From Escherichia coli (GTDB taxonomy: Bacteria; Pseudomonadota; Gammaproteobacteria; Enterobacterales; Enterobacteriaceae), in the NCBI RefSeq assembly GCF_045037415.1, contig NZ_CP173438.1: a stretch of 64,000 nt of DNA. One strand, given 5' to 3'. The translations under genes were made by a program, and so were the position numbers. The first letter of the stretch is position 1; each line of letters starts with the position of its first letter. Shown here piece by piece: positions 1,358-1,431 of this stretch. Under the pieces are notes generated by a model. That model ran no database searches, was not told the origin of the DNA, and worked only from the letters and a program-made list of their open reading frames with translations.

Positions 1358-1431
1358 CTTGTAACTGTTAAATCAGGCAAGGCAATGTTTGAAGTAGTTA
1401 TTACTTCTGACGTGCCTTGCCTTTTTTTTTG
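1358..1431 (+). promoter_or_regulatory. RAT-like antiterminator target overlapping an intrinsic terminator (hairpin aggcaaggca…tgccttgcct followed by T9)
   Basis: The sequence cttgtaactgttaaatcaggcaaggc resembles the BglG/LicT RAT consensus (…TTGTTACTG…CAGGCAAAAC…); the hairpin at 1375-1422 plus a 9-T run at 1422-1430 lies immediately 5' of the antiterminator gene. Confidence 0.6.

What the first reader, a model, noticed from the sequence alone, without database searches (positions are those of the whole stretch)
1358..1431. RAT-like element overlapping an intrinsic terminator in front of the antiterminator-PTS operon
The sequence TTGTAACTGTTAAATCAGGCAAGGC resembles the RAT consensus bound by BglG/LicT antiterminators and overlaps the 5' arm of a strong hairpin followed by T9. 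It lies directly upstream of the antiterminator gene itself rather than between the regulator and the PTS gene, implying autoregulated read-through control of the whole five-gene operon.
Basis: partly seen in the sequence, partly recalled or inferred. Interest (0 to 1): 0.5.

Follow-up and report, generated by a model that had tools for sequence, protein, structure and literature searches.

The report
Sugar-sensing read-through switch before pafR
This is a standard RNA switch: a binding site for a sugar-sensing antiterminator protein overlaps a transcription stop signal, just ahead of the already published pafR-pafP virulence-associated sugar operon of pathogenic E. coli, so it is real but ordinary.

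Summary
A RAT-type motif (core 1359-1381) is unique in the 64-kb window. Its 3' half shares 8-10 nt with the 5' arm of a strong hairpin (1375-1422, about -28 kcal/mol) that runs into T9 (1422-1430). The CAT+PRD antiterminator gene starts 11 nt after the T-run, at 1442. The locus is the c3405-c3410 / pafR-pafP operon of the ExPEC metV island, inserted beside amiC.

Orthologous leaders in Escherichia, Citrobacter, Atlantibacter and an Enterobacter-like clade (43% protein identity) keep both structures. They show compensatory changes: RAT top-stem G-C to A-U, and four terminator pairs. A covariance model built only from RATs of other family members ranks this site first in the window (17.3 bits, E about 0.015). 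It matches the core only, because the canonical GG..CC basal stem is absent.

E. coli bglGFB has a RAT and terminator upstream of bglG, and 48 of 77 homologous loci have a RAT-like motif upstream of the antiterminator gene.

The most likely mechanism is PafR-dependent, positively autoregulated antitermination gated by the PafP permease. Binding and read-through are untested. Novelty is low: a divergent new member of a textbook mechanism, possibly already described in two papers I could not read.

The parts
1257..1272 (+). CRP-like half-palindrome TGTGACTGATGTCGGA (tentative activator site)
   Evidence: It has 2 mismatches to TGTGA-N6-TCACA, and that match frequency is at chance level in the window. 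However, TGTGA sits at a fixed distance from the RAT in E. coli, E. whittamii, L087 and Atlantibacter, and a 9/10 match is present in the Enterobacter-like clade. This is inference only.
1333..1338 (+). Candidate -10 hexamer TAATGT (TAnnGT), implying a transcription start near 1345
   Evidence: A TAnnnT hexamer ends exactly 19 nt before the RAT's CTTGT in every Escherichia, Atlantibacter and L087 leader: TAATGT, TAAGGT, TAGGGT or TACAGT. No good -35 element was found, and the consensus promoter scan found nothing here. This is inference only.
1355..1387 (+). RAT (ribonucleic antiterminator) hairpin. The core is 1359-1381. Predicted pairs are 1357-1362 with 1377-1382 and 1365-1367 with 1374-1376; the internal loop is A1363-A1364 and the apical loop is UUAAAU.
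   Evidence: The motif is unique in the window. The fold is -6.3 kcal/mol with the same topology as bgl t1/t2. A CM built from 52 non-paf RATs ranks it first in the window, at 17.3 bits and E about 0.015. The top-stem pair 1367-1374 changes G-C to A-U in the 43%-identity clade, and the same two positions are A/T 34, G/C 15, G/T 1 and never unpaired in 50 distinct metagenomic RATs.
1375..1422 (+). Intrinsic terminator hairpin whose 5' arm (1375-1384) is the 3' half of the RAT
   Evidence: Folding gives -27.9 to -29.4 kcal/mol with z = -4.9. Every orthologous leader keeps a hairpin of -24 to -28 kcal/mol ending in a T-run. Four pairs have changes on both sides, and 85% of cells are paired against 34-54% for slid controls.
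1422..1430 (+). U-tract (T9) of the terminator
   Evidence: Read directly from the sequence. Orthologues have T7-T9.
1431..1434 (+). Shine-Dalgarno GGAG for pafR, 7 nt before the ATG
   Evidence: Read directly. It is conserved as GGAG/GGGAG in orthologues.
1442..2266 (+). pafR: BglG/LicT-family antiterminator (CAT RNA-binding domain plus two PRDs), 274 aa
   Evidence: NCBIfam gives LicT 226 bits, GlcT 178 and BglG 104, all below the equivalog cut-offs. Precomputed Pfam domains are PF03123 and PF00874. It matches LicT and GlcT PDB chains. RefSeq starts the gene at this ATG. The name pafR comes from Baum et al. 2014 as cited in PMC8882828.
2298..3878 (+). pafP: MalX-like glucose-family PTS EIICB permease, the presumed sensor and PafR kinase
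   Evidence: NCBIfam TIGR02004 534 bits and PRK10110 522 bits, both below cut-off. Pfam PTS_EIIC plus PTS_EIIB in orthologues.
3878..5053 (+). MalY/PatB-family PLP-dependent C-S lyase gene
   Evidence: TIGR04350 363 bits, above its cut-off of 340. The start overlaps the pafP stop.
5056..5652 (+). SIS-domain-only KpsF/GutQ-type sugar-phosphate isomerase gene (c3406-type)
   Evidence: NCBIfam KdsD, kpsF and GutQ hits cover the SIS part only. RefSeq names it a KpsF/GutQ family isomerase.
5724..6671 (+). Phosphoglycerate-dehydrogenase-like 2-hydroxyacid dehydrogenase gene, the fifth gene
   Evidence: NCBIfam PGDH 217 bits, below cut-off. The RefSeq start corresponds to the ATG at 5724. The gene is absent or broken in Atlantibacter and the Enterobacter-like clade.
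6702..6732 (.). Hairpin AAACCGCAAT-N11-ATTGCGGTTT at the 3' end of the operon, between convergent genes
   Evidence: Read directly. An A7 run precedes it, so on the - strand it is a hairpin plus U7. On the + strand it is followed only by UUUG.

Best explanation
The segment 1355-1430 is the leader switch of the pafR-pafP operon, a canonical BglG/SacY-type RAT overlapping an intrinsic terminator.

Transcription probably starts near 1345 (inferred). By default the nascent RNA folds the strong hairpin at 1375-1422, and RNA polymerase releases at the U9 tract, 11 nt before the pafR start codon.

When the antiterminator PafR is active, its CAT dimer is expected to bind and stabilise the weak RAT hairpin (1355-1387). 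PafR would be active when it is not phosphorylated on PRD1 by the MalX-like permease PafP, because PafP is busy phosphorylating its still unknown sugar. The bound RAT sequesters 1375-1382/1384, the 5' arm of the terminator. Polymerase then reads through into pafR, pafP and the three downstream metabolic genes.

Because the only switch precedes pafR itself, the circuit is a positive feedback loop. It depends on leaky read-through for the first PafR molecules and is kept off by PafP when no substrate is present.

Shown here: the sequence and structure features, their mutual exclusivity, their conservation and covariation, and the identity of the neighbouring genes.

Inferred: PafR-RAT binding, PafP-dependent phosphorylation, termination efficiency and promoter position.
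For: - The RAT motif is unique in the window, with 0 of 100 shuffles matching.
- 16 of 29 positions are identical to bgl t1, or 16 of 23 outside the apical positions, read.
- From TTGT to CAAG, 22 of 23 positions are identical to a Firmicute RAT (L104).
- The predicted topology and stability equal those of bgl t1/t2.
- The overlap with the terminator is 8-10 nt, within the canonical 6-10 nt (PMC5393181).
- The terminator folds at -28 kcal/mol, has U9 and z = -4.9.
- An independent CM ranks the site first in the window.
- The element travels with the operon, not with amiC. It is present upstream of the orthologous regulator in loci with other left-hand neighbours (L005, L088).
- Compensatory changes occur in the RAT top stem and in 4 terminator pairs, and the RAT closing pair is always paired in 50 distinct sequences.
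- The downstream protein has a CAT domain and two PRDs, with the LicT H100, H159 and H207 equivalents conserved, and a PTS EIICB gene follows.
- Literature reports that PafR appears to be expressed only in vivo (PMC4468546). That fits a tightly terminated, inducer-dependent leader.
Against: - No experiment was done or read here showing PafR binding, termination or read-through.
- The RAT lacks the canonical GG..CC basal stem. It scores only 17 bits against the family model, versus 41-42 for the bgl RATs, which were in the training set. The Enterobacter-like clade scores 10 bits.
- Most RAT pairs are invariant among the 11 orthologues, so covariation rests on one pair within the orthologues.
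- No convincing sigma-70 promoter was found.
- PafR has Pro where LicT and BglG have Arg in the GRG motif of the CAT domain, and Arg where LicT has His269. Its RNA recognition and HPr control may therefore differ.
Confidence: 0.85

Rival explanations
1. The RAT/terminator is real, but it is read by a different or additional antiterminator, for example chromosomal BglG. PafR would then act mainly elsewhere, so the operon is cross-regulated rather than autoregulated.
For: RAT cores are very similar across the family. SacT in B. subtilis binds several RATs (PMC1635312). A review reports that many putative RATs in K-12 and UPEC may serve other roles (PMC12591593).
Against: At the positions that set specificity in B. 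subtilis (3, 8 and 26; PMC1635312 Fig. 13 legend), the paf RAT has C, A and G, whereas both bgl RATs have A, U and A. The RAT co-occurs with pafR in every orthologous locus, including genera and contexts that differ otherwise. PafR is only about 30% identical to BglG.
Confidence: 0.08
2. The hairpin plus T9 is essentially a constitutive terminator. It would be a backstop for amiC read-through and a lock on a silenced, horizontally acquired operon. The RAT would be a decaying relic, and real control would be at the promoter (H-NS, CRP).
For: E. coli amiC has no obvious terminator of its own before this hairpin, while Atlantibacter has one directly after amiC. The operon is AT-rich, 34-44% GC against about 55% in the flanks, as expected for an H-NS target. 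The basal stem of the RAT is non-canonical. Expression was reported as undetectable in vitro (PMC4468546).
Against: The RAT core is invariant across about 57% protein divergence while the flanking leader sequence diverges, and the one change in it is compensatory. The 39-mer is at least 95% identical in 1687 of 1688 E. coli genomes that carry it. The overlap geometry is kept in all orthologues. Promoter-level silencing and antitermination coexist in bgl, so they are not alternatives.
Confidence: 0.06
3. The resemblance to a RAT arose by chance next to an ordinary terminator.
For: RATs are short and the family-model score is modest (E about 0.015, with rough calibration).
Against: No shuffle of 100 matches the pattern. 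The site lies exactly where the family places RATs, upstream of a CAT/PRD gene and overlapping a terminator. It is conserved with covariation.
Confidence: 0.01

Closest known systems
E. coli bglGFB leader (RAT and terminator t1 upstream of bglG)
   Same: [quoted passage not shown] The predicted hairpin topology and stability are the same. Both are AT-rich, poorly expressed loci.
   Different: bgl has a second RAT/terminator (t2) between bglG and bglF, whereas here the gap is 31 nt with none. The bgl RATs have the GGA..ACC basal stem and A3/U8/A26, while the paf RAT has C3/A8/G26 and no GG..CC stem. The permease is beta-glucoside-family EIIBCA in bgl and MalX-like glucose-family EIICB here. PafR is about 30% identical to BglG.
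Firmicute sacB/sacPA-type and related RATs (SacY, SacT, LicT systems) and their uncharacterised gut relatives
   Same: The core ...UUGU(U/A)ACUGUUAAAUCAGGCAAG... is 22/23 identical to L104. The UUNAAU apical loop and CAAG(A/G)C 3' side are shared. Some relatives also have a terminator arm starting at GGCAAG. The closest PafR homologues outside Enterobacteriaceae are Firmicute LicT-like proteins at 35-39% identity.
   Different: The host is a Gammaproteobacterium. The basal stem sequence differs. The operon content differs (MalX-like PTS, MalY-like lyase, SIS isomerase, dehydrogenase).
B. subtilis GlcT / ptsG RAT
   Same: An antiterminator controls a glucose-family PTS permease. PafR scores second best to the GlcT model and matches the GlcT structure 3rio.
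   Different: The ptsG RAT lies between glcT and ptsG, so GlcT is not autoregulated through it, and it has a distinct lower-loop structure (PMC1635312). The paf RAT core resembles the sac/lic/bgl type instead.
E. faecalis nagY-nagE (NagY)
   Same: A single RAT overlapping a terminator lies upstream of the antiterminator gene, with experimentally shown autoregulation and a conserved terminator with compensatory mutations. It is also linked to virulence (PMC9981650).
   Different: It is Gram-positive, the PTS is specific for N-acetylglucosamine, and NagY also has a distal target (hylA).

Membership tests
BglG/SacY-type RAT-terminator antitermination switch | A 29-33 nt RAT with the conserved core (UUGUNACUG ... 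CAGGCAA) | tested here: met
   The core is at 1359-1380 and is unique in the window. 16/29 positions are identical to bgl t1. The CM of 52 other RATs puts it top in the window at 17.3 bits, aligned to model positions 5-27.
BglG/SacY-type RAT-terminator antitermination switch | A hairpin with a variable apical loop and a stem interrupted by two conserved internal loops, closed by a basal stem (GG..CC in canonical RATs) | tested here: inconclusive
   The thermodynamic fold gives the same topology as bgl t1/t2 (top stem, UAA-type internal loop, lower stem), and the top-stem pair covaries. The second, non-canonical loop cannot be predicted by nearest-neighbour folding. The canonical GG..CC basal pairs are absent, because CM positions 1-4 and 28-31 are not matched. 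They are replaced by C1358-G1381 and U1357-G1382.
BglG/SacY-type RAT-terminator antitermination switch | The 3' end of the RAT shares 6-10 nt with the 5' arm of an intrinsic terminator (mutually exclusive folds) | tested here: met
   The shared nucleotides are 1375-1382 (8 nt paired in both) or 1375-1384 on the 29-nt frame. The criterion is from PMC5393181.
BglG/SacY-type RAT-terminator antitermination switch | A GC-rich terminator hairpin followed by a U-tract, located in a 5' leader or intercistronic region | tested here: met
   The hairpin folds at -27.9 kcal/mol, has U9 and lies 11 nt before the pafR ATG. It is conserved in all orthologues.
BglG/SacY-type RAT-terminator antitermination switch | A cognate regulator with an N-terminal CAT RNA-binding domain and two PRDs with phosphorylatable histidines | tested here: met
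   PF03123 plus PF00874. Alignment to LicT shows H98, H157 and H205 matching LicT H100, H159 and H207. The LicT H269 equivalent is Arg268.
BglG/SacY-type RAT-terminator antitermination switch | A cognate PTS EII permease that acts as sensor, usually encoded adjacently | tested here: met
   A MalX-like EIICB gene lies 31 nt downstream of pafR. The pairing is conserved in all orthologous loci.
BglG/SacY-type RAT-terminator antitermination switch | The antiterminator binds the RAT and suppresses termination in response to the sugar | not testable with these tools
   This needs EMSA, reporter or in vitro transcription experiments. The primary PafR paper (Baum et al. 2014) is not in the held library.
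Orthologue of E. coli BglG, B. subtilis LicT or GlcT (specific equivalogs) | Score above the NCBIfam equivalog cut-off | tested here: not met
   LicT 226 against 300, GlcT 178 against 320, BglG 104 against 322. PafR is a separate subfamily restricted to a few Enterobacteriaceae, with the next relatives at 35-39% identity in Firmicutes.

The most novel reading that the evidence does not exclude
The paf leader RAT may define a separate recognition class. It has C3/A8/G26-G27, no GG..CC basal stem, and is paired with a CAT domain carrying GPGVGY instead of GRG(L/I)(A/G)F. If so, it would be insulated from BglG and would be the first native RNA target of the virulence-associated regulator PafR. 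From my memory of the Baum et al. 2014 abstract, which I could not verify here, PafR's targets were reported as unknown. A descriptor built from this class could then be used to find the rest of the PafR regulon in ExPEC.
Probability: 0.3. Interest if true: 0.35.

Novelty: new member of a known kind. Interest (0 to 1): 0.18.

Why it matters
The mechanism is a textbook one, so it changes nothing conceptually. Its practical value is local. The pafR-pafP genes lie in the metV island of extraintestinal pathogenic E. coli. They are present in 31% of complete E. coli genomes and are reported to contribute to urinary-tract infection while being silent in vitro (PMC8882828, PMC4468546). A defined RAT and terminator gives a concrete cis element for building reporters, for screening the unknown inducing sugar, and for testing PafR RNA specificity. 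The element is not annotated in RefSeq records.

Tried and rejected
1. Rfam has no matching family. Gathering-threshold and permissive scans of 1150-2350 gave only noise.

2. The consensus promoter/terminator scanner found neither the terminator (its loop rule excludes it) nor a promoter on the + strand upstream.

3. I rejected the 293-aa ORF starting at ATG 1385, which runs through the terminator. That ATG is absent in Atlantibacter and the Enterobacter-like clade, and RefSeq starts the gene at 1442.

4. I rejected the idea that the hairpin is simply amiC's terminator. The element accompanies the operon where the upstream gene is different.

5. L085 (P0020, 57% identity) is an error-ridden E. 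coli contig and was discarded.

6. A NMR-style register for the lower RAT stem, with A1379 bulged, evaluates at +0.4 to +1.0 kcal/mol with nearest-neighbour parameters. I therefore report the thermodynamic register, which is also what the program gives for bgl t1/t2.

7. MAFFT misaligns the terminator 3' arm of the Enterobacter-like clade, so the terminator pair counts understate pairing. Per-sequence folds were used to confirm it.

8. A search for a second copy of the RAT 39-mer in 5426 E. coli genomes found exactly one place per carrying genome. This detects only near-identical copies.

9. The CRP consensus search is at chance level in the window.

10. Baum et al. 2014 and Gordon et al. 2015 could not be retrieved by PMC id, DOI or PMID.

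Full report
**What the window is.**
The window starts inside amiC (39-1184). It carries three tRNA genes at 48.6-48.9 kb and GcvB at 53.2 kb. From my knowledge of E. coli K-12 gene order, I take the three tRNA genes to be the initiator-tRNA cluster metZWV. Between amiC and the tRNAs lies an island. Its first five genes, all on the + strand, are:
- a CAT+PRD antiterminator (1442-2266);
- a MalX-like PTS EIICB (2298-3878);
- a MalY/PatB C-S lyase (3878-5053);
- a SIS-only KpsF/GutQ isomerase (5056-5652);
- a PGDH-like dehydrogenase (5724-6671).

Type VI secretion genes follow on the other strand. The stretch 1150-2300 is 100% identical to uropathogenic isolates and is present in 1686 of 5426 complete E. 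coli genomes. K-12-type genomes match only up to the end of amiC. This is the c3405-c3410 cluster of PAI-CFT073-metV (PMC2831201; the same five ORFs are listed for strain BEN2908 in PMC12928451). The regulator and permease were named pafR and pafP by Baum et al. 2014. They are reported to matter for mouse urinary-tract infection and to be expressed only in vivo (PMC8882828; PMC4468546). I could not read the primary paper.

**Check of the observation.**
The quoted string lies at 1359-1383. The pattern TTGTNACTG-N3-9-CAGGCAA occurs once in 64 kb and in none of 100 shuffles.

Folding 1345-1435 gives one dominant hairpin. Its pairings are 1375-1384 with 1413-1422, 1386-1389 with 1409-1412, and 1391-1396 with 1402-1407. 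The MFE is -29.4 kcal/mol, z = -4.9, and 0 of 200 shuffles fold as well. It ends in T9 (1422-1430), followed by GGAG and the ATG at 1442.

Before the 3' arm is transcribed, the RNA folds into a small hairpin of -6.3 kcal/mol (1357-1362 with 1377-1382, internal loop AA, 1365-1367 with 1374-1376). The program gives the same topology and nearly the same energy for the two experimentally known E. coli bgl RATs, which I read from the K-12 record (-6.4 and -7.8).

Nucleotides 1375-1382 pair in both structures, and the shared stretch is 10 nt on the 29-nt RAT frame. The literature describes canonical RATs as 29-33 nt long, sharing 6-10 nt with the terminator (PMC5393181).

**An independent family test.**
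Rfam has no RAT family. I therefore collected 77 loci encoding homologues of the regulator from one genome per species. I extracted 50 distinct RAT-like sites from the loci outside the paf clade, added bgl t1 and t2, and built a covariance model with the canonical structure.

Searched with filters off, the best hit in the whole window on both strands is 1359-1381, at 17.3 bits and E about 0.015. The alignment covers model positions 5-27 of 31, so the canonical GG..CC basal stem is not there. The bgl RATs score 41-42 bits, but they were in the training set. Orthologous paf leaders score 16-19 bits, and the most distant clade scores 10 bits. The element is thus a recognisable but divergent member of the family.

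**Conservation and covariation.**
The regulator has a narrow distribution. It is found in E. coli and E. whittamii (93% identity), in two Citrobacter species, Atlantibacter hermannii and some metagenomic contigs (78-80%), and in an Enterobacter sp. ENT03-like clade (43-44%). The next relatives are Firmicute LicT-like proteins at 35-39% or less.

All orthologous loci keep the order regulator, EIICB, lyase, SIS isomerase. The upstream neighbour varies: amiC, an LTXXQ protein gene, or an AP-endonuclease-family gene. All have the same leader design.

In an alignment of 11 distinct leaders, 96% of RAT cells are paired, against 24-47% for slid controls. Seven of the nine pairs never vary, one varies on one side only, and the top-stem closing pair switches from G-C to A-U in the distant clade. 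The terminator shows four pairs with changes on both sides. Each sequence folds on its own into a hairpin of -24 to -28 kcal/mol ending in T7-T9.

A metagenome scan used the RAT core with four positions left free, among them the two closing-pair positions. It returned 50 distinct sequences, mostly canonical Firmicute RATs. The two closing-pair positions were A/T 34 times, G/C 15 times, G/T once, and never unpaired. One of these sequences, L104, is 22/23 identical to the paf RAT from TTGT to CAAG. Several also have a terminator arm that begins at GGCAAG, so the deep overlap seen here is not special either.

**Is the position unusual?**
No. In K-12 the first bgl RAT and terminator lie upstream of bglG, and a second pair lies between bglG and bglF. 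Among the 77 homologous loci, 48 have a RAT-like motif within about 175 nt upstream of the regulator gene. Of these, 35 also have one downstream, and only 5 loci have a downstream motif alone. Autoregulation through a 5' RAT has been shown for E. faecalis nagY-nagE and is described for sacXY (PMC9981650). The only modest peculiarity is that the paf operon relies on a single leader switch. The pafR-pafP gap is 31 nt and holds no second element.

**Mechanism.**
The best-supported model is the canonical one.
- The terminator forms by default and stops transcription 11 nt before pafR.
- Active PafR binds the RAT, which blocks the terminator's 5' arm, and the whole operon is transcribed.
- PafP presumably phosphorylates and inactivates PafR on PRD1 when its substrate is absent.

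PafR keeps the histidines equivalent to LicT H100, H159 and H207 but has Arg at the H269 position. Control by HPr on PRD2 may therefore be reduced or different, which is an inference.

At the positions that set specificity among B. subtilis RATs (3, 8 and 26; PMC1635312), the paf RAT has C, A and G, whereas both bgl RATs have A, U and A. This argues for a private PafR-RAT pair rather than cross-talk with BglG.

The operon reading is supported by gene spacing of 31, -1, 2 and 71 nt and by a closing hairpin at 6702-6732. The fifth gene is preceded by a weak hairpin and is missing or broken in other genera, so the conserved core is four genes.

Promoter-level control is likely to add to this. The operon is AT-rich, 34-44% GC against 55% in the flanks. 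Only a weak, position-conserved TAnnGT -10 candidate is visible, at 1333-1338. A TGTGA-N6-TC element at 1257-1272 is position-conserved, although matches of that quality occur at chance frequency in the window.

**Verdict.**
The finding is real and correctly interpreted, but it is an ordinary instance of a textbook mechanism at a locus whose regulator is already published. The feature is not annotated in RefSeq. I could not establish whether the two most relevant papers describe it, so I file it as a new, somewhat divergent member of a known kind, with low interest.

Noticed in passing
window 1282-1304: There is a perfect 9-bp hairpin, GTCGGCTTG-AAAAA-TAAGCCGAC, between amiC and the paf promoter region, without a proper T-run. 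It is present in modified form in E. whittamii and E. coli E69 but absent from the Citrobacter and Atlantibacter leaders. It adds about 20 nt between the CRP-like site and the -10 candidate compared with the Enterobacter-like clade. Its function is unknown.
   Followed up: partly
window 1257-1272 and 1333-1338: A CRP-like TGTGA-N6-TCGGA site and a TAnnGT -10 candidate are both position-conserved relative to the RAT in orthologues. If transcription starts about 7 nt after the -10, the CRP-like centre is near -81.5 in E. coli and -61.5 in the Enterobacter-like clade, a difference of two helical turns. No convincing -35 was found. This suggests an activator-dependent promoter.
   Followed up: partly
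window 1442-2266 (PafR residue 268): PafR has Arg where LicT has the HPr-phosphorylated His269 (LYLSIRT against LYLTIHI). It also has GPGVGY where LicT and BglG have GRGLAF or GRGIGF in the CAT domain.
   Followed up: partly
window 1437-1445: A two-codon mini-ORF, ATG GAA TGA, has a stop that overlaps the pafR ATG. It is conserved as ATG AAA TGA in Citrobacter and Atlantibacter but absent from the Enterobacter-like clade. It sits too close to the GGAG to be an obvious start and is probably meaningless.
   Followed up: no
window 2543-2574: The second-best hit of the RAT covariance model (12.1 bits, E about 0.5) lies inside the pafP coding region and matches only the basal stem (AGGAUU...AAAGCCU). 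It is probably chance.
   Followed up: no
window 5681-5702: A weak hairpin, ACGCCA-N10-TGGCGT followed by TCTTTG, lies in the 71-nt gap before the fifth gene (dehydrogenase, ATG 5724). That gene is absent from the Enterobacter-like operon and split in one Atlantibacter contig, so the conserved operon core is four genes.
   Followed up: partly
window 6698-6732: A 10-bp hairpin lies between the convergent paf operon and the T6SS genes. On the - strand it is followed by U7, a good intrinsic terminator for the T6SS-side transcript. On the + strand it has only a UUUG tail.
   Followed up: no
window 3878-5053 versus L001: The MalY-like gene is 391 aa in the window but 394 aa in strain SA186 and in Atlantibacter, so there is a 9-nt in-frame length difference within E. 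coli.
   Followed up: no
L003/L012 (Atlantibacter), L009/L011 (Citrobacter), L005/L013 (Enterobacter sp. ENT03-like): In Atlantibacter the paf-like operon sits between amiC and mltA with no T6SS island. In the ENT03-like clade it lies elsewhere, next to fruBKA-like genes. The sugar operon therefore appears to be older at the amiC site than the rest of the metV island, or to move independently of it.
   Followed up: partly
window 1-64000: About 47 kb separate amiC from the three tRNA genes (48624-48917, - strand). The first genes of this stretch beyond the paf operon are T6SS genes (TssA/VasL-like, tssE, tssJ). GcvB is at 53241-53446 on the - strand.
   Followed up: no
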